In this document: piece after piece, positions 37,607 to 58,690 of the stretch | How positions within the stretch are numbered: position 1 is the first letter of the stretch | Layout of the letters: each line of letters starts with the position of its first letter | From: Candidatus Thalassarchaeum betae | GTDB lineage: Archaea > Thermoplasmatota > Poseidoniia > Poseidoniales > Thalassarchaeaceae | Assembly (NCBI GenBank): GCA_003193925.1 | Contig: PSPG01000004.1 | Span: forward strand, 96,001 to 160,000 | Direction of reading: 5' to 3' | DNA: 64,000 bases | Translations under genes and position numbers: made by a program | Notes under the pieces: model-generated | Told to the model about the DNA's origin: nothing | The model's database searches: none | What the model saw: only the letters and a program-made list of their open reading frames with translations

Positions 37607-38380
37607 CTAATCACCTAACTCGGCTAGAAGCGCTATCATGCAATTGCCGAGGCGCTCACTCATGGTGGCCGCTACAGCATCGACCGCTTCATGGTCGATG
37701 GCAGAATCAGGAGAGCCCGGGTTTCTTCCAGCGGCCCAGTTGGAGCAACACGAAAGTGCGACATGAGGAATTCCCCGTTCGGACATCAATCGTGATTCGG
37801 GGCCGAGAGTCATGCCGACCGCGTCCGCACCGAGCCGCTCGAGGGCGTCGATCTCCGAAGGTGACTCGAACTGTGGACCGATGCACTGCGCCACGACTAT
37901 CCCGCTCGGCACTATTCCTTGACTTACCTCAATGGTCCTCACACAAGCTTCGGAGGCGGCTGAGTCAAAGGGTGATGTCCTGTCGGCATGTGACGCATTA
38001 TCGTCATGGAACGTCCAAGGCCTCTCAGCGAGGTCAAGTACGTCGCCCGCGACTGCAATGGTCCCAGGCGGCATGTCCTCGCGCATGGTGCCAACCGAGT
38101 TGATGCTCACCACCAGGTCTGGCTGACAGCTCGCGGCTGCGTGAACGTTGGCGCGATGCTCGATCATGTGAGGCGGAGTCCTGCTGCCGTCGTCGGAGTG
38201 GTGGCGGTCGATCAGCAGAAGCTCCCCCTCTGGGAGCCCAACCAGAGTGGCAGGCACCTGGCCCCAGTTTGAGTCGATACGGAGTGCATCCGAAGTTGCC
38301 CCTTGCATCAAAGCGAGTTCGGATGTAAACGCACTCATTCCAGTACCACAGAGCACCGCGATGCGGGCCACAGTACTCAC
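37607..38380 (-). CDS. MTAP-family purine nucleoside phosphorylase
   Basis: 'GTG', 'RH...PPH.I.HRAN', 'GPQFESPSE', 'VGMT..PE', 'NWAAG'. Confidence 0.9.
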   Translation of the reverse strand: MSTVARIAVLCGTGMSAFTSELALMQGATSDALRIDSNWGQVPATLVGLPEGELLLIDRHHSDDGSRTPPHMIEHRANVHAAASCQPDLVVSINSVGTMREDMPPGTIAVAGDVLDLAERPWTFHDDNASHADRTSPFDSAASEACVRTIEVSQGIVPSGIVVAQCIGPQFESPSEIDALERLGADAVGMTLGPESRLMSERGIPHVALSCCSNWAAGRNPGSPDSAIDHEAVDAVAATMSERLGNCMIALLAELGD

Positions 38381-39279
38381 TCCTTCAAGCGCTCGATGAG
38401 TTCGGCCTTGTTGCCGGATACGGGCTTGCCGGCCTCCCTCAGGAGGTCCTTCAGTTGGACCACGGTCATCGATGGGTAGTCGGGAGCATCCTCGGCCGCC
38501 TCGGGCTCCTCGGCAGCCTCCCGCTCGGCTTCGCTCTCTGGCTCATCTTCCTCCTCGCTCGGCTCTTCCGCTTCCTCGTCGAACTCCGAGTCCTCGGACT
38601 CGAAAACAGTTGAGGCCTCGCTCTCGGCCCTCTCCTGCTCGCGAATCTCATCGAGCGTCGGGCCATCCTGGGTTACGACGCCGGCCTGAATCAGTTGGGT
38701 GCGTCGGATCATTACGCCCCTCACCGGCTGAATCTTGGAGACCGTTTCCTTGATCTTGCTCTCCATAGTGCCGTCCAGAGATGCCTTCTGCAGGTCTATC
38801 CAAGTGCTGGTAGCACCAATCTTGAGTATCACGTCACGCGCCAGTGCGCGCATCTCCTGCTTCTGGCTGGCCTTGATGCGGTTCCTCGATATCATTAGTG
38901 GCTTGATTCGCACATAGAAGCCATCGTCGGTGACGACATCGACCGTATCGTCGATCTTGCCCCTGTCGCGTCGGACCTGTCGGCGGATGTGGTCCTTCAG
39001 CATCTCGTGTCCAATGAACTCGGTCAGAGCGTCGTCGCCGACTACAGCAGTGATTCGGAACTGTACCTTCACGTGCATCTTCGAGAAATCGCCGTCGAGC
39101 TCGTACTGCAGGATCTCGTAGTGCCTGCCGATCAGCACCGACTCCTCCTCGGCCATCGTCTCGCCGATTACTTTGAAGAACCAGGGGTTGCGGGGTGCCC
39201 GGATTGTGTACCAGCGCTTGGACTTCCATTTGTCCCGCTGCTTACGTGCCGCCGCCCGTGCTGCTGCTCCCTTCGCCAT
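38377..39279 (-). CDS. rps3ae: 30S ribosomal protein S3Ae (eS1) with acidic linker and C-terminal SAP domain
   Basis: 'RDKWKSKRWYTIRAP', 'RRQVRR...KIDD'; tail 'MTVVQLKDLLREAGKPVSGNKAELIERL'. Confidence 0.95.
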   Translation of the reverse strand: MAKGAAARAAARKQRDKWKSKRWYTIRAPRNPWFFKVIGETMAEEESVLIGRHYEILQYELDGDFSKMHVKVQFRITAVVGDDALTEFIGHEMLKDHIRRQVRRDRGKIDDTVDVVTDDGFYVRIKPLMISRNRIKASQKQEMRALARDVILKIGATSTWIDLQKASLDGTMESKIKETVSKIQPVRGVMIRRTQLIQAGVVTQDGPTLDEIREQERAESEASTVFESEDSEFDEEAEEPSEEEDEPESEAEREAAEEPEAAEDAPDYPSMTVVQLKDLLREAGKPVSGNKAELIERLKE

Positions 39280-41261: not shown

Positions 41262-42248
41262 CTAGCTCTTGTTGCCCCTAGTCGTCCCGAGTCGTCGTGA
41301 CTTCTTCTTCGCCTTGCTCAAGCGTCGAGAGGAGGACCTGTCCTCCTTCCTAGCCCCGCCGAGAGTAATCGAGCCCTGCTCAAGGAGCTGGTCGGCCAGC
41401 GAGTTTGCGAGCTCCTCGTCCTCGTCAGGAGTCTTCAAGGCGTCTCTGACCGACTGGTTGTGCTCCCTGATGATGCGTTCCTGCTCCTCGTGCTGGGCCT
41501 TGATCTCGTTGCGGATCTCATTGACCTGGTCGAGCAGGACCTTCATGTCCGAGTGAACCTTGTCCGCAGCCTCTCGGGAGGCCACGAAGGCGTTGTGGAG
41601 CCTGTCGCCCTCGGCTCGGAGGAAGTCCCTCTCCTCCAGCATGGGCTTGACCTCCTCCCATATCTCATCCGCCTCCACATTGGCTTCCAACATGGCCTTG
41701 TGCTGGGCGTCGGCCTCGGCCTTCAGGAGCTGGATTGAGCCTTCCATATCGCCGAGGTCGATTTCGATGACCTGAAACTCCTCTGCTATCGGCATGAGCT
41801 CCTCGCGCTTGGCTATGAGCGCCTTGAGACGCTTGAGCATGGCGTTCTCCTTGCTGAGCGACAGGGAACCGTCGGTCATTATACGGTTCTCGATGCGGTC
41901 GATCTCCCCTATCGTCTCAGACAGTTGGATGACGATGGGTTTCGTACCACCTTCGCCCCTCTTTCCGCGCCGCTGGGTAATCAGTTCGCGCATCTGAGAC
42001 TGGATCTCGTCTCGCTTCGCCTGATGAATCTTGGCCCTGTTCCTGACCTCCTTCTGATCCTCCATGCGCTCCTTGATTCGCTCCCTCAACTCACGCGCCT
42101 GCTCTTGGACTGAATTACGGGAATCGGCTGCGCGTCGGCCGTTCTCGTTGTGCCTGTTCCTCTGCTCCCGCATCCTCCTGAGTCGAGTCTCCATCGCATG
42201 GAGTCGGGTCCTGAGTTCATCCTCAGGCTTGTCTGTTTCTCCTAGCAC
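41262..42248 (-). CDS. Archaeal coiled-coil protein (COG1340-like), paralogue A
   Basis: Long coiled coil, hinge 'IDRIENRIMTDGSLSLSKEN', repeated A-D/E-x-x-H motifs. Confidence 0.8.
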   Translation of the reverse strand: MLGETDKPEDELRTRLHAMETRLRRMREQRNRHNENGRRAADSRNSVQEQARELRERIKERMEDQKEVRNRAKIHQAKRDEIQSQMRELITQRRGKRGEGGTKPIVIQLSETIGEIDRIENRIMTDGSLSLSKENAMLKRLKALIAKREELMPIAEEFQVIEIDLGDMEGSIQLLKAEADAQHKAMLEANVEADEIWEEVKPMLEERDFLRAEGDRLHNAFVASREAADKVHSDMKVLLDQVNEIRNEIKAQHEEQERIIREHNQSVRDALKTPDEDEELANSLADQLLEQGSITLGGARKEDRSSSRRLSKAKKKSRRLGTTRGNKS

Positions 42249-42290
42249 GGCACGACCACACTGGCCTCCCCTTTCAATAGACCTGAGTCG

Positions 42291-43865
42291 TTACAGACCC
42301 AGCAGTGTGAGCGTGAAGGGTACGAGGGGGGATAGTACCACTATCGCCGCCCCAACCATGAACAGGGCCCCCAATGTCATCCTGATTCGGGTGAACAGGT
42401 CAGACCTGACTTGGACTGTGAGGACCCTCCCGGAAATCAGGTTTCCAGCCTTGTCCTCAAGCCTAACGGTGACCGTCGCCTCGCCCATGGTCGAGGGCAG
42501 GAGGCTCTGCCAGACTATCCTCGTAGCAGACAGCGCGTTAGGCAGGGACGCGCTGAGTGGGATTGGCATGAGTGATTCCGATTCCGGAGAGTATGGGTCC
42601 ACCTTCAGGCGGTAGACGCATTCCTGGGGCCTGAAGTCGGGCGTCTGTACCCTCAGGACCAGATTCTTCGACTCATGGCCCTCGTTGAGCACGAAGGCGA
42701 ACAGGTTGGCCTGACCTACTACCAGATTCTCCATGCCCACATCGAACCACACACCGTCGTCAGTGCGCCCGGACTGCCTGCGCATGCGCATCCTGTCGTG
42801 GAGCCTGAAGAAGGGAGCGCACTTGGTGCGCGCGCGAGAGAGTAGCCTGTCCCAAGTCTCCTCCCCCAACTCGGGATGGCGGAACAGTCCCTCGACTGTC
42901 GCCGAGTCGACCATCGGCTCCAGCGCCGTTCTGAACTCGTCCTCGTCAATCAGAGAAGAGCGTCTTAGATACAGCATGTGCAGCAGCATCTCCTGGAGCT
43001 CGCGCCTGCTGCTACCCCGGTGTATCTTGGACTCGACAGAGCGAAGGTACTCGGATATCCTGACAGCGAGCAGGGGGTCTATGTGAGCGCGAATCACATC
43101 AGTGAAGGGACGGCTCAGCAGAGCTGGGTGGATTGGGGGGGAGAAGGCCTCCAGCATGCCCCAGGGCTCAGCGGTGTTGAAGCGCGAGCGCTCGGAGACC
43201 ATGTGGACTCCGTGGCCGGACAGCAGTGCACCGGTGGAGAACGCGAAGAGGAAGGGCGCGTCTGCGACCTCCTCGGAGAACCACAGGCTGCTTGCAAGCA
43301 GGACGGCCGCGAGAACCATCAGGGTAATCGTGATCACGAGTTGTCGCGTGGCACCGTCCATGGTAGCCCTCATCTCGGTGTAACCGTGAGCGCTGTTGAA
43401 AGTCAGGCCCGCAGTGGTCAGCGCCTCTGCCTCGAGCCGAAAAATCGTCCTAGTGACCACCATCAGCCTCAGCAGGATGAGCAGCAAGGTGATGTCAGCG
43501 ACAAGCATGAGCAGCGACATGACGTAGATTCCCGTCGACATCGGCAGGCCGCCAGCGGCACCCTCGACATGATCGGCCCACCACTGCGGGTTCGAGTTGC
43601 TGAAAGACTGTGCCAGTCCGTAAAGCACGATTACCAGCAACGGCAAGTACAACACCAGTCTAGCACCGTCGCTTATCAGGAGCCTGTCAACCCTGATCAG
43701 CGTGAGCTCCTGGCCCCTGAGCCTCTCAATCCTCTCGCCTGTCTCCCCCGACTGAGTCGCTTGGGAGATTGGAGAAGGTGGCATATCGGGAGCGGGTGGG
43801 ACTGATTCATCCAAAGCATCGGCGAGGCTATCCAAATCGTTAGCATCGCCGTCGTCATCCACCAT
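42291..43865 (-). CDS. Hypothetical multi-pass membrane protein with large soluble domain
   Basis: About 4 N-terminal TMs, soluble region with a beta-rich part, C-terminal TM. Confidence 0.8.
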   Translation of the reverse strand: MVDDDGDANDLDSLADALDESVPPAPDMPPSPISQATQSGETGERIERLRGQELTLIRVDRLLISDGARLVLYLPLLVIVLYGLAQSFSNSNPQWWADHVEGAAGGLPMSTGIYVMSLLMLVADITLLLILLRLMVVTRTIFRLEAEALTTAGLTFNSAHGYTEMRATMDGATRQLVITITLMVLAAVLLASSLWFSEEVADAPFLFAFSTGALLSGHGVHMVSERSRFNTAEPWGMLEAFSPPIHPALLSRPFTDVIRAHIDPLLAVRISEYLRSVESKIHRGSSRRELQEMLLHMLYLRRSSLIDEDEFRTALEPMVDSATVEGLFRHPELGEETWDRLLSRARTKCAPFFRLHDRMRMRRQSGRTDDGVWFDVGMENLVVGQANLFAFVLNEGHESKNLVLRVQTPDFRPQECVYRLKVDPYSPESESLMPIPLSASLPNALSATRIVWQSLLPSTMGEATVTVRLEDKAGNLISGRVLTVQVRSDLFTRIRMTLGALFMVGAAIVVLSPLVPFTLTLLGL

Positions 43866-43867
43866 GG

Positions 43868-44521
43868 TCACACCTCCTCGGTCCTGGCCAGTATGCGCAG
43901 TGACAGTGGTTTGGACATCTGCAATCGATAGCCGCCACAGAATAACCCGTCCTCAGTAGATTGCACCTTGGTGCCGATGCCGAGACCGGCTACCTCCAGT
44001 GTGCGCGCGTCGGTGGCGTCCATGACAATCAACTCGACAGTTGCCGAGGAGCCCGACGGCAATGCCGAGATAGGCAGGAGGAATCCGCTCCTGATAGGCT
44101 CCACCCTCCTCTCTATCAGCGGGATCCTCTCACCACTGGGGGTACTCTCGGGATAGCCGAGCATCCTATCGAGTGCTGCCTCGAGCTCATCGTCTATGCC
44201 GTGCTCCAACCTGCATGCGGCCTCAGAGACGTCACCGGTGAACCCTATGACCTCGGTGAGTAGTATCTCTATCAGCCCCTCTCGGCGTTTTATCCTAGCA
44301 GCTCGCTGGAATCCCTCCGGCGTCAGGCGGCATCCCTTGTATGGGATGTGGGTGACTAGGTCGCGGCCCGCCAGACGCTGGATCATCTCTGAGGTGGATG
44401 CGGGGCTCACATCCATCATCTCAGCGAGCTGGGTCGTCTTGACAATGGCGTCAGGCTTGTCGACATGTGCCTCGAAGAGGCGCTTGAGGTACATCTCCTC
44501 GAACTCGCTCAACTCAGCCAT
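43868..44521 (-). CDS. DtxR/MntR family metal-dependent transcriptional regulator
   Basis: 'EMYLK', 'VSPAS.SEMIQRL', 'PYKG..LT..G', 'ACRLEH', FeoA-like C-terminus. Confidence 0.92.
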   Translation of the reverse strand: MAELSEFEEMYLKRLFEAHVDKPDAIVKTTQLAEMMDVSPASTSEMIQRLAGRDLVTHIPYKGCRLTPEGFQRAARIKRREGLIEILLTEVIGFTGDVSEAACRLEHGIDDELEAALDRMLGYPESTPSGERIPLIERRVEPIRSGFLLPISALPSGSSATVELIVMDATDARTLEVAGLGIGTKVQSTEDGLFCGGYRLQMSKPLSLRILARTEEV

Positions 44522-44532
44522 AATTCACCACG

Positions 44533-46083
44533 TCACCCCACCTCGGCCATGAATTCGGTCCTGCATGCCGGGCATCTGGAGCGGACGGGTCTGCGCTCCA
44601 GCGGAACCCGCAGCTTCTGGTCGCACTCCGGGCAAGATAGAATCTCCTCATTGGATGTTGCTACTGGCCACCAAGGAGCAGGCTCGGGCTCCGCTGTGCC
44701 CCCCTCAGAAGGCCCTTGACCCTGCGGACGGGGCTCAGTAGGGGACTGGACTGCCGGTTCCTCCTGAGCGGGCCGGGCGGAGAATTGCGACATGCAGGCA
44801 GGGCAGCGGACCGTCCCGGTGTGCTCGGAGGGAATGTTCAGGCGCTGCTCGCAGTTCGGGCACTGTATCTCTCGCTTCGCGGGCGCCTTCTCGAACCTGC
44901 GAGTGATTCTTGAGTCCCTGAGCACCTTTCCTCTACCTTCCTCGGTGCCAGGTGTCCTCTCCGATACGGTCCGCCAAGCGATGATGCCGACCAGCACTAC
45001 CGCGAAGCCCGACAGGGCTCCGTAGAAAGCCGCCATGAGATCGAATGGTAGTTCAGTCCCCCCACCGGAATCGGTGGACTCGACCGACAGGAACTCTGAG
45101 ACTACGGTGCCTTCCATGAACCAAGTGACCTCGAGCTCCACGATCTGCGAATCCGGCCACGGGCTGATATCCATAGTGCCCGACGACGTCCCCCCCGAGG
45201 AGACGGAAGACACGATCCTCTCAGCCAGCAGCATGCCGTCAGAGGTTCGGACAACCCTGAGTTCCCCCGATAGTGTAACGGCATCCCCGGAGTTGTTCAG
45301 CCAGTATGGCAGGCTCACTGAGTCACCGGGACTTGGTTTGTTAGGTGAGTGCGGGCCGAGTTCGACGGAGGGGGATATCGAAGGTGCATCCAAGTCGACC
45401 TGCCAAGTCAGGTTGACGGCCGAGTTGCTGGTCGTCCATCCTCGTGGCTCAAGGGTCACAGAGAGGTAATCTGCTTCCGGTTCCCCCAAGGCAAGTGACA
45501 ATGTCCTGAGGCCAGGCTCGAGAGTGACTGAGAACCCCTGCACCTCATGCTTGACTCCTTGGTAACCCAAGGCGATGGAGATGTTGACGTCTCTGGACTC
45601 CCCTTCGGACAGCACCACTGAAATCTGCGAATCCAGGCCATCGGCCAAGGTCCAATCGACCTCGTCGAAACTCAGGTCCAGAGACTGAGCCTCGTAGACA
45701 TGGATCTCCAGAGAGCCTTGAAGCAGCGAAGAGACTCCTCCATCGTCGCTCCCGACCTCCCAACTCATGTTCAGAACTCCGGCCGAGCTGGGAGTCATTG
45801 AGGCTGAGACCTCACGGCTCGAGCCGGGGTTGATAGCCACGTCGTCGCCGATAGAGAGATTGGTTCCCTCAGAATCGGTAAGTACCAATCTTACCGAACC
45901 GGTCTCCGAACCTTGGTTGTGAACCAGGATAGACGCTGTGATTTCGTCGCCGACATGCACTGGCTCCCCGACTACCGCCACATCAGCCGCGCCTGCGGAA
46001 GTGAACATCTTCTCATTGTCCTCGGCGAAGGCTGCCGGGGACAGAAGGGCCGATGCAAGCATGATAACCGCGATTTTTCGCAT
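44533..46083 (-). CDS. Secreted Ig/CARDB-like protein with TM and two cytoplasmic Zn ribbons
   Basis: Signal peptide, CARDB-like 'VHNQGS', TM, 'CPNC..CPAC' and 'CPEC..CPAC'. Confidence 0.8.
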   Translation of the reverse strand: MRKIAVIMLASALLSPAAFAEDNEKMFTSAGAADVAVVGEPVHVGDEITASILVHNQGSETGSVRLVLTDSEGTNLSIGDDVAINPGSSREVSASMTPSSAGVLNMSWEVGSDDGGVSSLLQGSLEIHVYEAQSLDLSFDEVDWTLADGLDSQISVVLSEGESRDVNISIALGYQGVKHEVQGFSVTLEPGLRTLSLALGEPEADYLSVTLEPRGWTTSNSAVNLTWQVDLDAPSISPSVELGPHSPNKPSPGDSVSLPYWLNNSGDAVTLSGELRVVRTSDGMLLAERIVSSVSSGGTSSGTMDISPWPDSQIVELEVTWFMEGTVVSEFLSVESTDSGGGTELPFDLMAAFYGALSGFAVVLVGIIAWRTVSERTPGTEEGRGKVLRDSRITRRFEKAPAKREIQCPNCEQRLNIPSEHTGTVRCPACMSQFSARPAQEEPAVQSPTEPRPQGQGPSEGGTAEPEPAPWWPVATSNEEILSCPECDQKLRVPLERRPVRSRCPACRTEFMAEVG

Positions 46084-46203
46084 TACTGCCACAGCAGCGC
46101 CTAGGCCCATTGGCAATGCCTCGGAATAGGTGCCCGTATGAATCAAACGCCTGGCAAGGTCACATAGTGACCTTTAATGCGGGCTCTCTCGTGCCCCGGA
46201 GCC

Positions 46204-47034
46204 ATGGATACCGAGGCACTGCTGGCAGTGACGCCAGAGGAGTTGGCGCAAGCACTGCTGGTGAGGAGGCAGGTTCTGAAGGAGCAGTTGCCTAACGTCA
46301 TCCGCAACCTCGAGGCTGAGGAGGACTCAATGCAGCCGCGAGTACAGAGGGCAGTCAATTCCCACCGTACGGCCAATGACAAGGTAGCCCAGCTCAAGGA
46401 GCGGCGCAACGCGGCTCAGAAGAGGGCCGGAGCGACCCTGCGCGATGTCAAGCAGGCCCGTGACAGCCTAGCCGATAGCGATGGGATGGTCAACCTCGAT
46501 CCCAACTGGAAGAAGGAGAAGCTGTTCGAGGAACTGGAGGAGATCGAGGATGTGATTCAGACCTCGGCCCTCGACCATCGTGCGGAGAGGAAGATGCTCG
46601 ACCGTCGCAAGAGGTTGCTCGAAGCCAATGAGAGATGGCTGAAGTCCAGGCGCGATTCCAATCCCGAGATGGCGAACTACATTGACACCCGAGGAGAGAT
46701 GAGTTCCCTCTACAGAGAGGCGGACAAGGCCCACCGAGAGATGCTGGTGATAGTTGAGAAGGCTCAGCCGCTGCATGAGAAGAAGCTGGTCATGGGGGCT
46801 GAACTGCGTGAGCTCCGCAGGCAGTTGGATCGAGCCAAGGAGCTCTTTGCCAAGTCTGACTCGGCGATTGCTCACTGGGAGAGGAGGATCTCTGACGGAT
46901 TCGATGGACTCGGTGGGGGGTTTCCCGATCTGTTGGCTGCGAACCGCAGGGTCTCCGAAGGCGGTCGCTCCTCGTTCGCTCGGAAGTCCAAGGCTAGATC
47001 CAAAGGCGCTTCAAATAGGAGTGAGGAGGAATGA
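46204..47034 (+). CDS. Archaeal coiled-coil protein (COG1340-like), paralogue B
   Basis: 'LEEIEDVIQTSALDHRAERKML', 'EADKAH', 'AQPLHE'. Confidence 0.8.
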   Translation: MDTEALLAVTPEELAQALLVRRQVLKEQLPNVIRNLEAEEDSMQPRVQRAVNSHRTANDKVAQLKERRNAAQKRAGATLRDVKQARDSLADSDGMVNLDPNWKKEKLFEELEEIEDVIQTSALDHRAERKMLDRRKRLLEANERWLKSRRDSNPEMANYIDTRGEMSSLYREADKAHREMLVIVEKAQPLHEKKLVMGAELRELRRQLDRAKELFAKSDSAIAHWERRISDGFDGLGGGFPDLLAANRRVSEGGRSSFARKSKARSKGASNRSEEE

Positions 47035-48005
47035 GCGAAGGCAAGGACTCGGGCCTATTCGAGGATCTGGAGGCGATGGATCACAAGGACATCGAAGAAC
47101 TCAGGGGAGATCTGGAGAGAGACCTGAGGTCCGTCGATCAGCAGCACAGGGAACTGAGGGACGAGAGGCGAAACCAAGTCGACATCGTCCGCTCGATGAG
47201 ATCTGCTGTAGGGGAGATCGAGTCCGCCGACGGAGAGAGGAAGGGTCTTCTCAAGAAATTCCACGCTACCAGGAAGTCCGCCGACGAAGCTCGCAAGCAA
47301 AGGGACTCCGTCAACAACTGCATCCCCCCTCCCGCTGATGTCCTGTCCGAGTGGCTGGCAGAGACCCATCGTCGACTGATTACCATCGACAACGACCTTA
47401 CCTGCGTGCCGACCCTTGCCCGAGAACTCGATACCTTCAGTCGCTTCTTCGAGCTTCAGGCCGCCATCGTCAGGAAGAGGGAGTCCGAGGTCGCGCACGG
47501 GAAATACGTGAAGCATGTCCAGGACATGAGGGCGATAACCTCGAGGCTAGACGCCACTCGCAAGACCAAGAAGGACAGTGCGGAGAACGCGTCGGCGAAG
47601 TCGGACATAGAGCCCGGAAAAATCTCTCGCTCGGAAGTTCGTAAGACTAGTCGGGGAATCGACAAGATAGACAAGAAACTCGATGTCCTCAGTTCCGAGC
47701 GCAAGTCCCTGCGCAAGAGCCTGGGACGAATCAAAGCCTATCAGAAAGTCACTATGCGAGGCGGTCGGCATATTCGCCTGTCCGATGTCAAGGACCGGGC
47801 CCAGAGCGGAGGCTCGCTCGATGCGAGTGAGCTTGAGGTCCTGCTGAATTCGGGAGCACTGTCCGAATTGGCCGGTTCGGAGCCCGCCAAGGAGTCCAAG
47901 CCGAAGACCCGACAAGGTGGCAAGAAGAAGCGCATGAGGCTGGGTGTGACCAGAGGCGGCTCGAGGAAGGGGACTATGGCTGCTCGCAGGGAGAATGACG
48001 GCTGA
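47031..48005 (+). CDS. Archaeal coiled-coil protein (COG1340-like), paralogue C
   Basis: Coiled coil, 'SGGSLDASEL', basic tail 'KKKRMRLGVTRG'; ATGA overlap with B. Confidence 0.75.
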   Translation: MSEGKDSGLFEDLEAMDHKDIEELRGDLERDLRSVDQQHRELRDERRNQVDIVRSMRSAVGEIESADGERKGLLKKFHATRKSADEARKQRDSVNNCIPPPADVLSEWLAETHRRLITIDNDLTCVPTLARELDTFSRFFELQAAIVRKRESEVAHGKYVKHVQDMRAITSRLDATRKTKKDSAENASAKSDIEPGKISRSEVRKTSRGIDKIDKKLDVLSSERKSLRKSLGRIKAYQKVTMRGGRHIRLSDVKDRAQSGGSLDASELEVLLNSGALSELAGSEPAKESKPKTRQGGKKKRMRLGVTRGGSRKGTMAARRENDG

Positions 48006-48073
48006 GCAGATTCTTTGGCTTCCGCCACTCCTAAATGGGGGTCCAAGTTCCGAAAATGCGCAGAGGCTTTTAG

Positions 48074-48964
48074 ATGGCAGTGGAATTCAGCGAAGTTCGT
48101 GGTGTCCTCCAGCCCCTGTGCGAATCAATTGATGGGAAGTCATCCGTCCAACGCGACAATCGTGATGAGTGGAATGGTAAAGTCAGGGAGTACCTCGACG
48201 AGAGAAACGAGATCAACCGGCAAGTCAAGGGGCTCATCAACGAAGTCCAAACCCAAAAGGCCATTCGCGACGAGCTCAACCTCAGGGTCAGGGGGCTCAA
48301 AGAGGTCAGGGCCGAGCGTTCCGACCACCTGAAGGACATCAGAACGAAACTTCGAGCGAAACTGACTGCGCAGGAGGAGGAGCAGGGGGCCCAGGAGCGC
48401 AGGGGGGACAAGCGTCCCTCCGCAGGTAAGATCAGGGCTGATATGGAAAGGCTCGAGAAGAGGTACAATACAGGGCAGTTCCTCGGCAAGAAGGAACGAG
48501 ATTACCACAAGAAGGCGAAGCAGCTCTCTGAGGCTCTGAAGGAGGCTTCCAAGAGAAAGGGCGCCGGAACGATGCGCGAGCTCAAGGACTCGGTCAGGGA
48601 TGCTGAGCGCCTCCAGGAGGAGGCACACAAGTCGGTCGAGAGGGCAGTGAAGAGTGCACAAGAGGCCCACGACCTGATGGTAGAGTTGTCCGAGGAGGTA
48701 GACCGCCTAAGGGAGAAAGCTAACTCCGCTCACTCGAGTCTGACTCGCTCCAAGCGCGAGGCAGATACCATGCACAGCCGGTACATCGTCTCACTGCGAT
48801 GCATACACTCTATTCGGGACATGATGAAGGCGATGGATTCGCGAGAGAAGAGGGAAGAGGAGTCACCCGACACCGAGAGGCTGGAGGTCGCCGACTTGAT
48901 GTCCAAGCTGATGGCCGGAGACACGCTGTCAACCGATGAGTTGATGGCCCTCAGGCGATACTGA
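48074..48964 (+). CDS. Archaeal coiled-coil protein (COG1340-like), paralogue D
   Basis: 'RDEWN..V...ERNEIN', 'AQEAHDLM', 'EADTMH', C-terminal 'KLMAGDTLSTDEL'. Confidence 0.85.
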   Translation: MAVEFSEVRGVLQPLCESIDGKSSVQRDNRDEWNGKVREYLDERNEINRQVKGLINEVQTQKAIRDELNLRVRGLKEVRAERSDHLKDIRTKLRAKLTAQEEEQGAQERRGDKRPSAGKIRADMERLEKRYNTGQFLGKKERDYHKKAKQLSEALKEASKRKGAGTMRELKDSVRDAERLQEEAHKSVERAVKSAQEAHDLMVELSEEVDRLREKANSAHSSLTRSKREADTMHSRYIVSLRCIHSIRDMMKAMDSREKREEESPDTERLEVADLMSKLMAGDTLSTDELMALRRY

Positions 48965-48967
48965 CCG

Positions 48968-49915
48968 TCACTCGTACTCGTACCGCCTTCCATTGCGGCC
49001 GTGCAGAATCTGGGTTGGTGCACCCTCTACGTCTATGATCCAGCCCGGTATTGTCACAGGGGACTCACTGAGCTCTGCCGTTTCCGGGTCGAACCTCCAC
49101 CACTCCAGCATCACGCTGCTCACCGGACCTTCATCGGAATCCGGCTCGCCCTGCTTACGCGAATCCAGAAGTCTGAGGAGTTCTGGGGGGAAGTCCCACA
49201 TATCCGTCCAACTCCCCTCCGAGGGGCCCACCGCCCTGAGTCTGGGAGGATAGCTGAGTTCCTCGTCCGAATCGTAGATCGCAAGGCTGGAAGACCAAGG
49301 GTCCTCCAGCACCTGCCACGCTCCCCACTCCCTCTCGTCATCGGGGCCTACGAGCGAGCCTGAGACGAGCCATAGTTTCGCAGACAGCAGGACAGGAGTG
49401 GTATTGACTCCCTCCCATCCGCGTTGTACCAGCCAGGAGTCAAGATCCACGAGTGGCCTCAGAGTCCTGCGCTGACCGAGAGATTCTCTGGCAGGGGGGG
49501 TATGGGCACCGTGTTCAGCGTCCAACCCAGACTGCGAGTATGGAGAGTGCGCAACGAGGTCGCCGGAGAGCACGGCCTCACCGATCCATCGCCCCATTCG
49601 CTCAGGCCCCCATATGACTACATCCACTGCAGAGTCGATGGAATCCAGTATCCCGTCCGGGAAGGGGCGCTCGCTGAGTATCCAATGCCTGCCTCCTGGA
49701 GCGTCGACGCTCCACCTCTCGATCTCCGTCGGCGAGATAGGAAGGAGATCTGCGGGGACATGCCACACATGAACCGAGGAGCCCCGCCCCTCGCCTAGTT
49801 CCGGCACCCTCTCAGCAACACCCATACACCTGAACCCATGGACCTTCGGCACGTTGTCCGCTGAGTGAAGTTGTACGGCCCGCAATGCGAGTAGGTCACG
49901 TACTGCCTCATCCAC
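48968..49915 (-). CDS. Hypothetical protein (possible degenerate restriction-endonuclease-like N-terminus)
   Basis: 315-aa ORF with own TTCAA element; fold guess is weak. Confidence 0.7.
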   Translation of the reverse strand: MDEAVRDLLALRAVQLHSADNVPKVHGFRCMGVAERVPELGEGRGSSVHVWHVPADLLPISPTEIERWSVDAPGGRHWILSERPFPDGILDSIDSAVDVVIWGPERMGRWIGEAVLSGDLVAHSPYSQSGLDAEHGAHTPPARESLGQRRTLRPLVDLDSWLVQRGWEGVNTTPVLLSAKLWLVSGSLVGPDDEREWGAWQVLEDPWSSSLAIYDSDEELSYPPRLRAVGPSEGSWTDMWDFPPELLRLLDSRKQGEPDSDEGPVSSVMLEWWRFDPETAELSESPVTIPGWIIDVEGAPTQILHGRNGRRYEYE

Positions 49916-50307: not shown

Positions 50308-51879
50308 TCAAACGTTCTCGGGAATGTAGAACAGGTCGACGCTTCCAGTGCCCAGTGCCACGGGTTGTCCGACGATGATGTTCTCGGTCACCCCCCTGAG
50401 CTCGTCTCGCTCTCCGATGACCCCAGCCTGGAGCAGATGGGTGACCGTGACCTCGAAGGCGGAGCGTGCGAGGATGCTGTGCTTGGTGCCGCTGACGCCG
50501 TGCCTGCCTATCGCTCGGACCGCGCCTTCGCTGGTCATTACGTCCGACACGGTCAGAAGATGGCGGATGTCGACCTCGAGTCCGGCTCCCTCAAGCGTGT
50601 CCGACATCTCGTTGATTATCGCTTGCCTGGCAGCCTCGATACCGAGATACCCATTGATCTCGGTAATGTTGTTGGTGTAGGTCCTCGACCTGTCGACCCC
50701 GGCGAACTCGCTGACCTTGGCCAGGTTGGAGCCGATGGTAGAGATGTAGTACTCCCCGGTCTCCCTGCTGGGGCCCTGTACATTGGCACGGACGACGTCG
50801 GGCAGTCCCTTCAGACGCAGTTTCTTGATCTTATCTTCGAGCTGTAGGAGCGCGGTGTAGGTCGGCGGATCGTTGGCCAGACTGGCGAGGTCCTCCTCCT
50901 TGGTGACTCCCGGGATAATCTTCAGGACCTTTGGGCGGTCCTCGTTGTCAGCCTGGATGTGGAGTCGGAGAGCCCGGGACAACTTGTCCCTGACTTCGGC
51001 CCCAGTCATGCCCTTGCGCCTGAGATTGGAAACGATGAGATGCAAGCTGATGTGGCGTTGCGTGATCTCGACGTCGATCTTGGCGATATCGAGCGTGGTG
51101 GTCATCTCGACTCCAGCGGCGATTTTCAGGACCGCCTTCTCATTGGTGTTCAGCGGCTTGCCCTTCGAATCGAGCTCTTCGAGATATATCAGCATGGTCG
51201 GGGTCTTGGGGACCTTGCGTGCGTCCACTATCTCGATGACTCTTGGCAGCCCCTGGGTCACGTTCACAGTGGCGACTCCTGCATAGTGGAAGGTTCGCAT
51301 TGTCATCTGAGTACCCGGCTCCCCTATGGACTGGGCTGTGGTGATGCCGACGGCCTCGTGCGGGTCGGCCCTGGCGCTGGATAGGGCTGACCAAGTGGAC
51401 TCAATCACCTTCCTCGCCTTCGGCTTGGTTAGTTTCTTGATACCTCTGGCGCGGACGCCATCGACCAAGTCACCGATCATGCGCGGAGTCAGATTGATGT
51501 TCATCCCGATCGAGAGCTCGCGGAGCTGCTGATAGATCTCGTCGTCGGTGTCCACGTCCCGGAGAATCTGCTTCATCTTGGCATCTGGGTCGTAGTCCTG
51601 CAATGGCAGGGACTTCTTCTTGCGGCGCCTGGAGACAGCCCTGCGTCGCACGATGGTCTTCTCGGCCTGAGCTGCGGCCCTAGACGGCTTGGTGGAGGTC
51701 TCCATCACTCTGTGGATCTCTTGAGCCGACCCCGAATCGATTCCGCAGATCTGCGCGATCTGCCCCGAGGTGAGGATCTTCACATCATCCCACTTGCGAT
51801 CATCGGCGAGCTTGTGAGAGTACTCCTCGGCTATGCCGAGATCCATGAGTTTCTTCTTAGTGGCGCTCTTGACTACCAT
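50308..51879 (-). CDS. rpoA2: RNA polymerase subunit A'' (Rpo1C) with N-terminal extension
   Basis: '[17 protein letters not shown]', '[12 protein letters not shown]', 'DIRHL', 'ARSAFE', '[10 protein letters not shown]'. Confidence 0.97.
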
Positions 51880-54800: not shown

Positions 54801-54980
54801 GTCGATAACGCCCATCTTTGGGTCCATCAGCCCCTGCTTGTACGCGTGCCCGTCGTCCTTGTAGGTGTCAGCGGTCTTGATTTCGACAGCGGACATCTTA
54901 CGAATCTCGTTGGGATCCATCAAACCGAACTTGATCGACTCGATCCTCTTCGGGATCTTGGCTGCGTCGCGCGCACTCAT
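51879..54980 (-). CDS. rpoA1: RNA polymerase subunit A' (Rpo1N)
   Basis: '[11 protein letters not shown]', '[14 protein letters not shown]', 'FNRQPSLH'; ATG overlaps rpoB stop (ATGA). Confidence 0.97.
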
Positions 54981-57900: not shown

Positions 57901-58690
57901 CAGCGCTGGGAATCTTGACCATCAGCATGCCGTCGCGTCGCTTCTCGACGTTGAGTGGCTTACGAACGCCGTCCCTCTGTGAGAATATCTTGGCGACCTC
58001 GGTCTCATGGGCGTACTTCTTGTTCTTCTCGACGGTGACTCGGTTGGGAGCCAGATCCTCCATCGAGATGAGCACGCGCTCGGTGCCGTTGATAATGAAG
58101 TAGCCACCGGGGTCCAGCGGGTCTTCACCAGCCTTGCGCAGCAATTGGGTGAGGTACTCCGCGTCCTCGGCGGAGGTCTCGGGCGAGAGTTTCCTGTTCT
58201 CGTCGATGTGGTCAGCGTGCACATTGCATCTGGCAGAGCGGACCATGATGGGTAGGTTCCCGATGTGCACGCCCTCCTCGTTGATGTATCCGAGGTCGCC
58301 GTCGGGTGTATCCGGTGGTATGTCGTCGCGGTAGATGCGGAAGTCGAGGTACACAGGGGAGAAGTAAGTCAACTTGCGAATGCGGCACTCTAGCGGGGTG
58401 GCCGGGTGCTCGGCTCCGTTGGCCTCACGAATGGTAGGTTGGCCCAGCCTGATGTTCTTCAGGCGGACTAAGATCTCCTTGTCGAGGACGTCGAGTTTGA
58501 TGCATCCGCCTTCCCCCTCTCCTCCAGGGAGATCCTCGACGGGCTCGTCGGTGCCTATGCGGATGGCGCGTACTATCTTCTCCATCCTGCTGAGGCGACC
58601 GTCACCAGCAGGGATGCAGTCATTGTAGGACATCAACTGGTGGTTGACGAGGCTCCGCTGCTTGAAGTAGCTCGAAACTATCTCCTTCAT
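54977..58690 (-). CDS. rpoB: RNA polymerase subunit B (Rpo2, unsplit)
   Basis: 'GGYFIINGTER', 'ETPEGQNCGL', 'GDKFASRHGQKG', 'GGLRFGEMERD'. Confidence 0.98.
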   Translation of the reverse strand: MKEIVSSYFKQRSLVNHQLMSYNDCIPAGDGRLSRMEKIVRAIRIGTDEPVEDLPGGEGEGGCIKLDVLDKEILVRLKNIRLGQPTIREANGAEHPATPLECRIRKLTYFSPVYLDFRIYRDDIPPDTPDGDLGYINEEGVHIGNLPIMVRSARCNVHADHIDENRKLSPETSAEDAEYLTQLLRKAGEDPLDPGGYFIINGTERVLISMEDLAPNRVTVEKNKKYAHETEVAKIFSQRDGVRKPLNVEKRRDGMLMVKIPSAGTTAIPVVLLMRALGMENDKEIFASIAGPVQAMKYTVANLNDVKDNEEYGVETEEEAVSWLEKKFAAGQQKEYRESRIQNLLDKELLPHLGSSPDHRHKKSIFLGRIVRQVLEMAITNRDPNDKDHYANKRVRLAGDLMEDLFRVSMQQLARDLKYQLERHHNRKRELKINSCLRPDVLTSKIMHALATGNWVGGRSGVSQLLDRTTYIAALSHMRRVTSPLVRSQPHFEARDLHPTHWGRLCPNETPEGQNCGLVKNAAQMIDVSEEVPEDDVKELLIEAGVDSSPIQWAVGSRIHVNGDIFGLHKRPNKLVAQFKRRRRSGRIRPEVSIRHDSANRDVYINTDRGRMLRPLLVIEHGSLNLSKTHLYGLRSGDLTFSDLVSTGVVEWVDAEEEEDLLIAPRPYDLPLISPKHGRPINPTKVEWLNLGEEEISEAKLGVEVQLPNGDSVYEEFSQPLNYYQEGIDALRRKQNKNNTVLVYTHVEIDPQLILGVCASLVPYPEHNSTPRVTGGTAMVKQSLGLPSANFRLRPDTRAHIMHYPQQAIVGTRAMESTNFNKRPGGQNFVVAIMSQHGYNMQDAVIMNRASVERALARSTFVRTYNAENKRFPGGQEERIEVPGTGLDEVKGLRSWESYSHLERDGLPVPEEYLSTLDKSDRVVLVGKTSPPRFLEEAHGAFLQAQERRESSMLVRHGEEGWVDNVFVTESLDSGRLVRITLRTNKIPELGDKFASRHGQKGVIGRLVDEEDMPFTADGIIPDLLINPHAIPSRMTVAHVLEMVGGKVGSLEGRKVDGTAFTGEKEDSLRSGLLRNGFNHTGREPMINGETGEAYSAEVFVGVIYYQRLHHLVSSKLHARSRGRVQILTRQPTEGRARQGGLRFGEMERDCLISHGASMVIKDRLLDESDGWNLMVCNTKGCGHIAYYDWKRRTTVCPYCGDRSDVHTVQTSYAFKLLLDEMKSLGVAMRLELGDRR

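What the first reader, a model, noticed from the sequence alone, without database searches (positions are those of the whole stretch)
41262..48964. Four divergent COG1340-like coiled-coil paralogues arranged around a divergent operon pair
Seen: three tandem coiled-coil genes (46204-48964, +) and a fourth (41262-42248, -) that closes the oppositely oriented run CARDB-TM-double-Zn-ribbon -> DtxR -> multi-TM protein. Shared features: a central hinge (A 'IENRIMTDGSLSLSKE', B 'IEDVIQTSALDHRAE', D 'LEKRYNTGQFLGKKE'), periodic A-x-x-x-H motifs, and a C-terminal 'G.SL/TL' cap. A and C share the basic tail KKKSRRLGTTRG / KKKRMRLGVTRG. From memory, archaea usually carry one or two such genes and the hinge resembles yeast Bfr1 (an mRNP/ER-polysome protein); both points are unverified. 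Inference: a hetero-oligomeric filament or scaffold, possibly membrane-tethered and RNA-binding through the basic tails.
Basis: partly seen in the sequence, partly recalled or inferred. Interest (0 to 1): 0.75.

Follow-up and report, generated by a model that had tools for sequence, protein, structure and literature searches.

The report
Four diverged archaeal coiled-coil paralogues, clustered
A marine Group II archaeon keeps four very diverged copies of a widespread but unstudied archaeal coiled-coil protein in one conserved gene cluster, and fusions in relatives hint that they form a scaffold that works on RNA.

Summary
Four real genes, A 41262-42248(-), B 46204-47034(+), C 47031-48005(+) and D 48074-48964(+), flank a tight minus-strand operon: CARDB/TM/2 Zn-ribbon protein, DtxR-type regulator, multi-TM protein, then A.

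All four are homologous at profile level. A-D scores 99.9%. B and C score 93-97% against A or D. Reversed-sequence controls give E>0.05. D passes Pfam DUF7121 (the COG1340 family). A, B and C do not pass it on their own.

A and D are the two ancient paralogues found across the phylum. B and C turn up almost only in this order, where the whole cluster is conserved in both families.

Function is inferred only.
- In the sister family, C is fused to a Cid1/TUTase-type nucleotidyltransferase. This enzyme was not found in this genome or its family.
- An MGIII D-type copy carries a SAP domain.
- D-type genes elsewhere often sit beside tRNA or ribosome genes.
- A complex prediction supports B binding C, with B's base and cap on C's hairpin tip (0.68 against 0.00 for controls).

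My best reading is a cap-to-tip hetero-oligomeric, RNA-linked scaffold, perhaps under DtxR control.

The Bfr1 resemblance could not be tested.

This scan has already reported the same cluster on at least 13 other genomes.

The parts
41262..42248 (-). A: 328-aa coiled-coil hairpin protein. It is the 'A-type' ancient DUF7121 paralogue, with cap ...GSITLGG and a basic tail (13 K/R in the last 30 aa). Last gene of the minus operon.
   Evidence: Pfam DUF7121 at E 0.0014, 18.6 bits, below the 29-bit cut-off. hhalign to D 99.9%, E 8.7e-37. Found in 56 of 60 other genomes of the family. A-type orthologs occur outside the order. Tail composition.
42291..43871 (-). 526-aa membrane protein. Hydrophobic segments lie at about 64-196, then a soluble region of about 300 aa, then a C-terminal segment at 499-517. 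No known family.
   Evidence: No Pfam or NCBIfam match. Hydropathy. Conserved in 15 of 20 fetched regions of the family and 10 of 11 of the sister family. Its start overlaps the DtxR stop by 4 nt.
43868..44521 (-). DtxR/MntR-family metal-dependent transcription regulator, 217 aa.
   Evidence: Fe_dep_repress at E 2.2e-13 and Fe_dep_repr_C at E 6.1e-18, both above their cut-offs. Nearest NCBIfam model is MntR of the Thermococcus type, E 1.5e-26, below its cut-off.
44533..46146 (-). Surface protein: N-terminal hydrophobic segment, CARDB/Ig-like domains, one TM segment (371-389), and a cytoplasmic tail with two zinc ribbons (about 427-455 and 504-532). The true start is probably downstream of 46146.
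   Evidence: CARDB at 28.1 bits, above the 22.7-bit cut-off. Zn_ribbon_4 at E 1.4e-06 with 2 stretches, below its cut-off. DZR also matches. Hydropathy. Present in 20 of 20 and 11 of 11 fetched regions.
46156..46174 (.). Perfect palindrome AAGGTCAC-ATA-GTGACCTT. Its right arm runs into a TATA-like TTTAAT (46173-46178), 26 nt upstream of B's ATG. Candidate operator of the DtxR-type regulator (inference).
   Evidence: It is the only match in the window, though 26 of 100 shuffles give at least one match with up to 2 mismatches. Identical arms sit at the same place in 3 of 29 evaluated orthologous loci (L048, L049, L052; two other genera). The other 26 have 5 or more mismatches.
46204..47034 (+). 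B: 276-aa coiled-coil hairpin (285 aa if read from 46177). Found almost only in this order; a divergent DUF7121 relative. Cap is DLL..V..GG.SSFARK, with a short basic stretch and an acidic EEE end.
   Evidence: The window's B has no DUF7121 hit. 7 of 30 orthologs do, best E 2.3e-08. hhalign to broad D-type 97.5%, E 7e-12, 190 columns. Profile found in f1 24/25, f2 43/50, f3 1/43, f4 0/2.
47031..48005 (+). C: 324-aa coiled-coil hairpin, the most diverged copy. Its tip carries IPPP...NDLT.VPTL. Cap is SGGSLDASELEVLLNSGALSEL. The disordered basic tail has 14 K/R and 7 G in 42 aa. Translationally coupled to B.
   Evidence: DUF7121 is not among the families listed for the 32 orthologs. hhalign to A 92.7-96.2% over 277-278 columns, and to broad D-type 95.8%. 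AF2 model has pLDDT 81.6 and a hairpin architecture. Profile found in f1 25/25, f2 48/50, f3 1/43, f4 0/2. Only 161 hits among 1.84 billion representatives.
48074..48964 (+). D: 296-aa canonical DUF7121 protein, the 'D-type' ancient paralogue. Cap is DLMSKLMAGDTLSTDELMALRRY. No basic tail.
   Evidence: DUF7121 at E 4.5e-11, 43.1 bits, above the 29-bit cut-off. AF2 pLDDT 84.2: helix 5-109, tip helices 117-132 and 139-161, helix 166-263, then two short cap helices. D-type orthologs occur across the phylum.

Best explanation
A, B, C and D are four homologous proteins of about 300 aa. Each is a long antiparallel coiled-coil hairpin with a conserved tip and a small C-terminal cap, and all belong to the DUF7121/COG1340 superfamily.

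Shown:
- A and D are the two ancient paralogues that most members of the phylum carry.
- B and C are extra, strongly diverged copies. Outside this order their profiles matched only one genome, G081.
- The eight-gene arrangement [CARDB/Zn-ribbon protein, DtxR, membrane protein, A] <-> [B, C, D] is conserved in both families of the order.

Inferred:
- The four proteins assemble into a hetero-oligomer.
- This scaffold binds or organises RNA, such as ribosomes, mRNPs or RNA 3' ends, through the K/R/G-rich tails of A and C.
- In the sister family the same scaffold carries an RNA-tailing enzyme fused to C. In this genome it does not.
- The DtxR-type regulator probably controls the B-C-D promoter through the palindrome that overlaps its TATA-like box.
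For: Homology:
- hhalign of ortholog alignments with reversed-sequence controls, repeated with the comparison tool.
- 7 of 30 B orthologs hit DUF7121.
- The C profile picks up A orthologs at E 1.5e-06 to 1e-03 in whole-genome scans.
- The C profile also finds about 300-aa outgroup proteins. 9 of these 11 also hit the A or D models.
- Atlas look-alikes of C: 21 of 30 hits fall in the set of clusters that carry DUF7121 (on 21% of the members of the best-ranked one).

Ancient against order-specific copies:
- 22 DUF7121 genes from 12 genomes outside the order split into 11 D-type and 11 A-type.
- B and C profiles match in f1 and f2, but in only 1 of 43 genomes of f3 and 0 of 2 of f4.

Conservation:
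- B-C-D is in tandem in 28 of 29 other-genome loci. The 29th ends at its contig end.
- The whole block is present in 20 regions of the family and 11 of the sister family.

Assembly:
- B's stop overlaps C's start, here and in the sister family.
- Complex prediction B+C scored 0.68 against 0.00 for the best of 3 controls. That mark was reached by 116 of 157 solved complexes and 2 of 215 mismatched pairs.
- The runs agree in at least 73% of contacts, and the partner's pLDDT is at least 67. My own alignments were used, so the calibration counts hold only roughly.
- The interface is B 9-41 plus 215-269 (including the cap) against C 94-148 (the tip).

RNA link:
- In 8 of 11 sister-family regions C is a protein of about 700 aa. 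In the one I scanned, its N-terminus is MTPAP-like_central (E 4.8e-30) plus PAP_assoc (E 3.3e-11).
- PF22600 was found in 26 of 34 sister-family genomes, always in ORFs of 673-763 aa or one cut by a contig end.
- An MGIII D-type protein has an N-terminal SAP domain (E 1.4e-11).
- 7 of 11 D-type loci outside the order adjoin tRNA, ribosome or SRP genes. These are CCA-adding enzyme plus LigT in 3, MBF1-like HTH plus Sua5 plus MetAP in 2, ribosomal P0/P1 in 1, and SRP54 in 1. Related genomes are not independent.
- The tails of A and C are basic and predicted disordered.

Regulation:
- The palindrome at 46156-46174 overlaps the TATA-like box.
- It is identical in three orthologous loci of two other genera.

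Expression:
- Short contigs of a marine metatranscriptome library, mostly 95-99% alike, lie on A, DtxR, B and C. This is weak, because an RNA library can hold DNA.
Against: - No RNA-binding domain is present in A-D of this window.
- The nucleotidyltransferase was not found in this genome or in 34 genomes of its family. The fusion is therefore evidence by homology of the C module only.
- Neighbours of D-type genes outside the order vary, and several pairs are convergent rather than co-transcribed.
- Neighbours of A-type genes are metabolic: adenylosuccinate synthetase and thiolase.
- Half of the cluster encodes membrane proteins, which an RNA role does not explain.
- The conserved polar residues may only lock the hairpin register. 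By position, R44 lies opposite D231, and R79 opposite A195/Q196 in D. This is my inference and the alignments.
- The complex prediction is one pair. Its controls were unrelated natural proteins of unknown fold, so they do not exclude generic coiled-coil pairing.
- B-C direct profile similarity is weak (6.3%).
- The palindrome is absent from most genera: 26 of 29 loci have 5 or more mismatches.
- Synteny within one order of small genomes can be inherited without functional linkage.
Confidence: 0.42

Rival explanations
1. Membrane-attached scaffold. The coiled-coil proteins dock on the cytoplasmic zinc-ribbon tail of the CARDB surface protein and/or on the 526-aa membrane protein. They would form a sub-envelope structure for cell shape, surface-layer anchoring or signalling, with no role on RNA.
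For: - A is the last gene of a tightly packed operon with both membrane proteins.
- This arrangement is conserved in both families.
- The surface protein's tail carries two zinc ribbons on the cytoplasmic side of its TM segment.
- Long hairpins that bind head to tail would suit a lattice.
Against: - A-D have no hydrophobic or recognisable membrane-targeting segment.
- Outside the order, the A-type and D-type genes examined are not linked to such an operon.
- The 526-aa membrane protein is missing from 5 of 20 fetched regions of the family.
- The nucleotidyltransferase and SAP fusions are not explained.
- No contact between the tail and A-D was tested.
Confidence: 0.25
2. No joint machine. A and D do the unknown ancestral jobs of the two pan-phylum paralogues, and B and C have new separate jobs. 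The clustering is inherited gene order in small, syntenic genomes.
For: - A-type and D-type genes lie apart in 10 of the 12 outside genomes sampled. The exceptions are G212 and G258, where they are 1-8 kb apart.
- The flanking genes are syntenic too (PdxS, and L30e within the family), so order-wide synteny is general.
- D is separated from C by 1.7-4.7 kb in 11 of 20 regions of the family. It is inverted in 3 of them.
Against: - B-C translational coupling is conserved across the order.
- The B-C complex prediction passes its controls.
- B and C always occur together next to the divergent operon.
Confidence: 0.2
3. Metal-linked function. The invariant histidines of the A[DE]xxH motifs bind a metal. 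The cluster would then be a DtxR-controlled metal storage or sensing system.
For: - A DtxR/MntR-type regulator sits in the cluster.
- A palindrome lies at the B promoter.
- Several His residues are invariant in A and D.
Against: - The His motifs are equally conserved in D-type proteins outside the order. In the loci examined there, no DtxR gene was seen beside the D-type or A-type genes.
- The His residues are spread along a 15-nm helix and do not form a cluster. By position they face conserved residues of the opposite helix (my inference).
- No known metal-binding family matched.
Confidence: 0.05

Closest known systems
Pfam DUF7121 (PF23435). JGI labels these proteins 'uncharacterized coiled-coil DUF342 family protein', which I recall as the COG1340 name. 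They are sometimes mislabelled 'putative phosphoserine phosphatase'.
   Same: - D passes the model, and A is an unambiguous homolog.
- Same length, hairpin architecture, tip motif and cap.
- The family is nearly universal in the phylum (147 of 151 genomes).
- It is archaeal in the Atlas clusters.
- Its function is unknown. [quoted passage not shown]
   Different: - Four copies instead of one or two.
- B and C are too diverged for the Pfam model, and their profiles matched only one genome outside this order.
- A and C carry long basic tails, and B ends in an acidic EEE.
- The copies are clustered with a regulator and two membrane proteins.
Yeast Bfr1 / plant proton-pump interactor PPI1
   Same: Only as a lead. 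These are said to be a coiled-coil, polysome/mRNP-associated protein with a similar hairpin-tip motif. That would fit the RNA-linked reading.
   Different: Not tested. No eukaryotic sequence could be reached. One search listed only archaeal DUF7121 proteins, and one search found nothing among longer proteins. No paper holds the terms searched. What Bfr1 does is recalled, not taken from any call.
Antiparallel coiled-coil arms and hairpins of known structure (SMC/Rad50 arms, PrgA, chemoreceptor, dynein stalk, CT398/HP0958)
   Same: Fold level only.
- Best VIA-align rows: PrgA Z 14.2 (rmsd 3.0, 196 aligned) and Smc arm 5xg2 Z 13.7 (rmsd 6.8, 234 aligned).
- Best Foldseek row: E 8.7e-03.
   Different: - No ATPase heads, hinge or receptor domains.
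- The Z values are in the range the tool gives for unrelated long helical proteins.
- NCBIfam SMC/Rad50 hits score 8-18 bits against cut-offs of 567-1087.
Cid1/TUTase-family terminal nucleotidyltransferases (MTPAP-like_central + PAP_assoc)
   Same: In the sister family, the ortholog of C carries this enzyme as its N-terminal half.
   Different: The window's C has no such domain. The domain was not found in this genome (about 92% complete) or in 34 genomes of its family.

Membership tests
DUF7121 (PF23435) / COG1340 | Match to the Pfam model above its gathering score (29 bits) | tested here: inconclusive
   - D: met, 43.1 bits.
- A: 18.6 bits, not met on its own.
- B and C of the window: no hit.
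- B orthologs: 7 of 30 hit at E <= 0.1, best 2.3e-08.
- C orthologs: DUF7121 is not among the 25 listed families.
- So D is a member. A is a member by profile comparison (99.9%). B and C are remote relatives outside the model's reach.
DUF7121 (PF23435) / COG1340 | Profile-level homology over most of the length, above a control for coiled-coil bias | tested here: met
   - A-D E 8.7e-37.
- A-B E 2.6e-08.
- A-C E 2.2e-09.
- B-D E 1.2e-09.
- Reversed-sequence controls E 0.055-0.61.
- Repeated.
- B-C direct comparison is weak (E 0.0059).
DUF7121 (PF23435) / COG1340 | Hairpin of about 300 aa: two long antiparallel helices, a short helical tip and a small C-terminal cap | tested here: met
   AF2 models of D (pLDDT 84.2) and C (pLDDT 81.6) show this. 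A and B were not folded.
DUF7121 (PF23435) / COG1340 | Conserved tip motif and C-terminal cap motif (G-E/D-x-L-S-T-E/D-x-L in D-type) | tested here: met
   - The tip aligns in A, B and D, and with changes in C.
- The cap of C aligns to the cap of D-type.
- A and B carry variant caps (GSxTLGG; GG.SSFA). The cap of A-type proteins outside the order reads LKK.GKI.L.
Bfr1 / PPI1 family (eukaryotes) | Sequence or profile homology to Bfr1 or PPI1 | not testable with these tools
   No eukaryotic sequence or profile was available. Searches reached none, and searches found no paper.
SMC/Rad50-type proteins | ABC ATPase head domains at both ends of the coiled coil | tested here: not met
   The proteins are about 300 aa and almost wholly helical. 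NCBIfam SMC/Rad50 models score 8-18 bits against cut-offs of 567-1087.
DtxR/MntR regulators (for the 217-aa protein) | N-terminal DNA-binding domain plus metal-binding/dimerisation domain | tested here: met
   PF01325 at 50.6 bits (cut-off 26) and PF02742 at 65 bits (cut-off 27). Which metal it senses was not tested.
Cid1/TUTase-type nucleotidyltransferase | Palm domain (PF22600) and PAP_assoc (PF03828) in or near C | tested here: not met
   - Window C: no such domain.
- Own genome: no match.
- The family: 0 of 34.
- Sister family: 26 of 34, in the same ORFs as the C matches.

The most novel reading that the evidence does not exclude
The four paralogues form a defined heteromeric chain in which each subunit's cap grips the next subunit's tip. 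This chain links the zinc-ribbon tail of a surface protein to ribosomes or mRNA, and in the sister family to an RNA-tailing enzyme. That would be an archaeal counterpart of a membrane-associated polysome/mRNP scaffold. It would also give the pan-archaeal DUF7121/COG1340 family its first function.
Probability: 0.12. Interest if true: 0.8.

Novelty: new variant of a known kind. Interest (0 to 1): 0.55.

Why it matters
DUF7121/COG1340 is one of the most widespread archaeal protein families without a function. It was in 147 of 151 genomes of this phylum, and in Haloferax, Sulfolobus and Methanosarcina among the control genomes.

Marine Group II archaea are abundant in the surface ocean (recalled, not from a call). 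Their fourfold, clustered expansion offers concrete handles for experiments:
- a predicted cap-to-tip contact;
- basic tails;
- a nucleotidyltransferase fusion and a SAP fusion in relatives;
- a candidate operator.

If the RNA-scaffold reading holds, it would assign a role to the whole family. It would also show that archaea use eukaryote-type RNA-tailing enzymes.

I found no description of the cluster in print. The library does not cover most subscription journals.

Tried and rejected
- **Solved structures by sequence.** Nothing beyond chance: best E 0.034 for D alone, 0.057 for the D profile and 0.04 for the C profile.
- **Fold searches with the D model.** Only generic coiled-coil hairpins came back. 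I rejected them as evidence of function. The CT398/HP0958 rows (Z 11.0 and 9.8) are within the noise for helical models.
- **Pfam on the isolated caps and tails of A-D.** No known small domain such as SAP or HeH matched. Only the canonical D-type cap matched, to DUF7121's own C-terminus.
- **Bfr1/PPI1.** The 'near' search was filled by Poseidoniales D orthologs: 120 listed of 432 hits among 8000 scored candidates. The 'longer' search found none, which is weak evidence, as the tool itself says. The paper searches were empty.
- **Neighbours of A-type genes outside the order.** They gave no functional lead.
- **The palindrome as an order-wide operator.** Rejected, because it is present in only 3 of 29 evaluated loci. 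Other genera show other small inverted repeats at other distances, and I did not pursue them.
- **Sequencing runs.** Three metatranscriptome runs of one study held next to none of the words. No run held half of them.
- **Laid contigs.** They cannot show transcript ends, strand or level.
- **G081.** A genome of family f3 matched B and C at E 3.3e-86 and 3.1e-120 on one contig. I take this as a misplaced contig, not as presence in that family. I did not test it.

Full report
**What is there**

The region holds eight tightly packed genes on two diverging strands.

Minus strand:
- A 537-aa protein, 44533-46146. It has an N-terminal hydrophobic segment, CARDB/Ig-like domains, one TM segment at 371-389, and two cytoplasmic zinc ribbons.
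- A DtxR/MntR-family regulator, 43868-44521. Both Pfam domains are above their cut-offs.
- A 526-aa multi-TM protein of no known family, 42291-43871.
- Coiled-coil protein A, 41262-42248.
- The gaps between these genes are 11 nt, a 4-nt overlap, and 42 nt.

Plus strand:
- B. The ORF opens at 46177.
- C, 47031-48005. Its start overlaps B's stop by 4 nt.
- D, 48074-48964.

None of A-D has a hydrophobic segment.

**Are the four really paralogues?**

Pairwise similarity is weak:
- A-D are 25% identical over 249 aa.
- A-C match only in the tails.
- B and C are near noise against everything else.

Pfam calls only D as DUF7121 (43.1 bits, cut-off 29). A scores 18.6 bits, and B and C score nothing. 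In the window's own genome only D and A ring that model.

I therefore collected orthologs of each protein from related genomes and compared the four alignments profile against profile. As a control for coiled-coil bias, I reversed every sequence of the second alignment.

| Pair | Probability | E-value | Columns |
|---|---|---|---|
| A-D | 99.9% | 8.7e-37 | 278 |
| A-C | 96.2% | 2.2e-09 | 277 |
| B-D | 96.4% | 1.2e-09 | 187 |
| A-B | 95.2% | 2.6e-08 | 192 |
| C-D | 93.5% | 2.2e-07 | 26 (the cap only) |
| B-C | 6.3% | 0.0059 | 141 |

All six reversed controls gave E between 0.055 and 0.61.

With registered alignments, the comparison tool gave:
- C-A: 92.7%, E 4.4e-07, 278 columns.
- C against a broad D-type alignment: 95.8%, E 6.7e-09, 179 columns, including tip and cap.
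- B against the broad D-type alignment: 97.5%, E 7e-12, 190 columns, with the tips aligned.

Further evidence for homology:
- 7 of 30 B orthologs hit DUF7121 directly, best E 2.3e-08.
- The C profile picks up A orthologs as secondary matches in whole-genome scans, at E 1.5e-06 to 1e-03.
- The C profile found only 161 proteins among 1.84 billion cluster representatives.
- Eleven of those are proteins of about 300 aa from outside the C family. Nine of the eleven also hit my A or D models, and three weakly hit DUF7121.
- Language-model look-alikes of C: 21 of 30 hits fall in the set of clusters that carry DUF7121, on 21% of the members of the best-ranked one.
- Those of D are DUF7121 clusters in 29 of 30 hits, all archaeal.

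AF2 models show the same architecture for D and C:
- D has pLDDT 84.2. Its parts are helix 5-109, tip helices 117-132 and 139-161, return helix 166-263, and two short cap helices.
- C has pLDDT 81.6. Its parts are helix 18-97, tip helix 102-117, return helices 129-190 and 200-241, a small cap, and a disordered tail from 283.

That covers the hinge, the A[DE]xxH motifs, the cap and the shared A/C tail.

C is the most remote copy, and the direct B-C relation rests on their common relation to A and D.

**Where the copies come from**

DUF7121 is almost universal in the phylum: 147 of 151 genomes, and 102 of 102 high-quality ones.

Outside this order, my hand tally of that table covers 126 genomes. 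It gives 37 with one match, 78 with two, 7 with three and 4 with none. Matches are not exact copy numbers.

I fetched 22 such genes from 12 genomes outside the order. They split cleanly into two types:
- Eleven score best with my D model (E 1e-23 to 3e-51). They end in GEKLSTEDLM.LQKAGLL.
- Eleven score best with my A model (E 7e-27 to 5e-38). They end in LKK.GKI.L.

Against these 22 genes, the B model gave only weak hits (14 of 22, E 8e-05 to 7e-11). The C model gave one (E 5e-04).

Profiles of B and C find orthologs in both families of the order, and almost nowhere else in the class:

| Profile | f1 | f2 | f3 | f4 |
|---|---|---|---|---|
| C | 25/25 | 48/50 | 1/43 | 0/2 |
| B (E <= 1e-05) | 24/25 | 43/50 | 1/43 | 0/2 |

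The single f3 genome is the same in both searches. It matches on one contig at E 3.3e-86 (B) and 3.1e-120 (C), and I take that contig to be misplaced.

So A and D are the two ancient paralogues. B and C are extra copies that were found, apart from that one genome, only in this order.

Names attached to close D relatives are 'uncharacterized coiled-coil DUF342 family protein' (JGI), which I recall as the COG1340 label. NCBI names include 'coiled-coil protein [Candidatus Poseidoniales archaeon]' and '[Candidatus Thalassarchaeum sp.]'.

**Conservation of the cluster**

- B-C-D lie in tandem in 28 of 29 loci from other genomes of the family. The 29th is cut by its contig end.
- In 20 longer regions of the family, A, DtxR, the CARDB protein, B and C are present in all 20, in the same order and orientation.
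- The 526-aa membrane protein is present in 15 of those 20.
- D directly follows C in 9 of the 20. It is separated by 1.7-4.7 kb in the other 11, and inverted in 3 of them.
- In the 11 regions of the sister family, the same block is present.
- In two regions that I inspected, one from each family, the inserted genes between C and D are a GNAT acetyltransferase and a small protein. That small protein matches Roadblock/LC7 weakly in L034 and matches no family in L065. In L034 a KaiC-like ATPase lies on the other strand.
- The flanks are syntenic too (PdxS, and L30e within the family). Order-wide synteny alone is therefore weak evidence of functional linkage. The overlapping stop and start codons are stronger evidence.

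**Clues to function**

1. In 8 of the 11 sister-family regions, C is a protein of 695-730 aa. I scanned one of them. Its N-terminal ~370 aa hold MTPAP-like_central (E 4.8e-30) plus PAP_assoc (E 3.3e-11). This is a Cid1/TUTase-type terminal nucleotidyltransferase.
2. Across the order, this palm domain was found in 26 of 34 sister-family genomes, in the same ORFs as the C matches. It was not found in 0 of 34 genomes of the window's family, in 0 of 2 of a third family, or in the window's genome.
3. The D-type protein of an MGIII genome carries an N-terminal SAP domain (E 1.4e-11). In this window, ribosomal protein S3Ae also carries a SAP domain.
4. Of 11 D-type loci outside the order, 7 adjoin tRNA, ribosome or SRP genes. 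Three adjoin the CCA-adding enzyme and a LigT-like phosphoesterase. Two are followed on the same strand by an MBF1-like HTH protein, Sua5 and methionine aminopeptidase. One follows ribosomal P0/P1. One precedes SRP54. Some of these genomes are close kin. A-type neighbours are metabolic.
5. A and C end in K/R/G-rich tails, with 13 K/R in 30 aa and 14 K/R plus 7 G in 42 aa. The tail of C is predicted disordered. B ends in EEE.
6. A complex prediction of B with C, each given with its own alignment, scored 0.68. The best of 3 controls scored 0.00. The mark was reached by 116 of 157 solved complexes and 2 of 215 mismatched pairs. The runs agree in at least 73% of contacts, and the partner's pLDDT is at least 67. 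Because my own alignments were used, the counts hold only roughly.
7. The confident contacts join B's N-terminal helix start (9-41) and C-terminal region (215-269, including the cap DLL..V..GG.SSFA) to C's hairpin tip (94-148). The prediction supports binding and does not show it. The controls were unrelated natural proteins, so generic coiled-coil pairing is not excluded.

**Regulation**

Upstream of B lies a perfect palindrome, AAGGTCAC-ATA-GTGACCTT (46156-46174). Its right arm runs into a TATA-like TTTAAT, 26 nt before the ATG at 46204.

It is the only match in the window. However, 26 of 100 shuffles give at least one match when 2 mismatches are allowed.

Identical arms occur at the same place in three orthologous loci from two other genera. 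The other 26 of 29 evaluated loci differ by 5 or more of 16 arm positions. All the loci keep a CCTTTAT-like box about 27 nt upstream of B.

So this is a candidate operator for the adjacent DtxR-type regulator in a subset of genera. It is inference only.

**Expression**

One marine metatranscriptome library holds short contigs, mostly 95-99% alike, on PdxS, A, DtxR, B and C. This is compatible with transcription in a close relative. It is not proof, because an RNA library can contain DNA and contigs give no strand or ends.

**Structure comparison**

No solved relative was found by sequence.

By fold, only generic antiparallel coiled coils came back:
- Foldseek best E 8.7e-03, an Smc arm.
- VIA-align PrgA Z 14.2 and Smc arm Z 13.7. 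This is the range the tool reports for unrelated helical models.

**Reading**

The best-supported account is that A-D form a hetero-oligomeric, cap-to-tip scaffold of coiled-coil hairpins that acts on or organises RNA. Its expression may be tied to a metal-sensing repressor.

The steps that are shown:
- homology of the four proteins;
- the ancient origin of A and D against the order-specific origin of B and C;
- conservation of the cluster;
- the fusions in relatives.

Assembly is supported by one prediction and by translational coupling. RNA binding, membrane attachment and regulation are inferred.

The main rival is a membrane-attached scaffold docked on the zinc-ribbon tail of the surface protein. 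The two readings are not exclusive, and their combination is my most novel reading.

**Comparison with what is known, and novelty**

The family is Pfam DUF7121. [quoted passage not shown] The three other papers that hold the term use it in passing. I read a passage of one (PMC11433780) and saw only the search listing of the other two.

My searches for the Bfr1 link, the PPI1 link and the cluster itself found nothing relevant.

Earlier notes of this scan describe the same cluster on at least 13 other genomes, with the same main reading. I reached the homology, the conservation and the fusion independently before reading them. I took from them the lead to look for an operator, and the untested PPI1/Bfr1 lead.

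I rate this a new variant of a known, uncharacterised kind.

Noticed in passing
window 38377-39279 (-): Ribosomal protein S3Ae carries a C-terminal acidic linker and a SAP domain (PF02037, E 7.5e-13). I recall that as unusual for an archaeal ribosomal protein. An MGIII D-type coiled-coil protein also has a SAP domain (L092).
   Followed up: partly
L065:9823-12015 (-) and 7 other sister-family loci: The ortholog of C is fused to a eukaryote-type Cid1/TUTase nucleotidyltransferase: MTPAP-like_central plus PAP_assoc in L065. The palm domain was found in 26 of 34 sister-family genomes and 0 of 34 of the window's family.
   Followed up: yes
L065:8954-9863 (-); L034:6870-8766: In L065 and L034, a GNAT acetyltransferase and a small protein lie between C and D. 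The small protein matches Roadblock/LC7 weakly in L034 and matches no family in L065. In L034 there is also a KaiC-like ATPase on the other strand. All are absent from this window, where C and D are 68 nt apart.
   Followed up: partly
window 48968-49915 (-): A 315-aa protein with no Pfam or NCBIfam match lies convergent with D, with a 3-nt gap. It is conserved beside D in 9 of 20 regions of the family, at 23-46% identity. It was not seen in the sister-family regions.
   Followed up: no
The other 42 genomes of that family have none, so this is probably a misplaced contig.
   Followed up: no
L080, L082, L090 (genomes G157, G219, G234): In three genomes of two other families of the phylum, the D-type DUF7121 gene abuts the CCA-adding enzyme gene, tail to tail. 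A LigT-like 2',5' RNA ligase/phosphoesterase lies next to it, and Trm5 is nearby in one.
   Followed up: partly
window 46177-46203: The longest ORF of B starts at an ATG inside the TATA-like box. Orthologs show the real start is the ATG at 46204. The TTG start at 46146 of the CARDB protein is likewise probably too far upstream, since a signal-like segment begins at residue 17.
   Followed up: partly
window 50308-58690 (-), 25211-27127 (-), 61319-62224 (-): Context genes near the cluster: RNA polymerase subunits A'', A' and B, with L30e just before them; an FttA/aCPSF1-type beta-CASP nuclease; and an FtsZ family protein.
   Followed up: no
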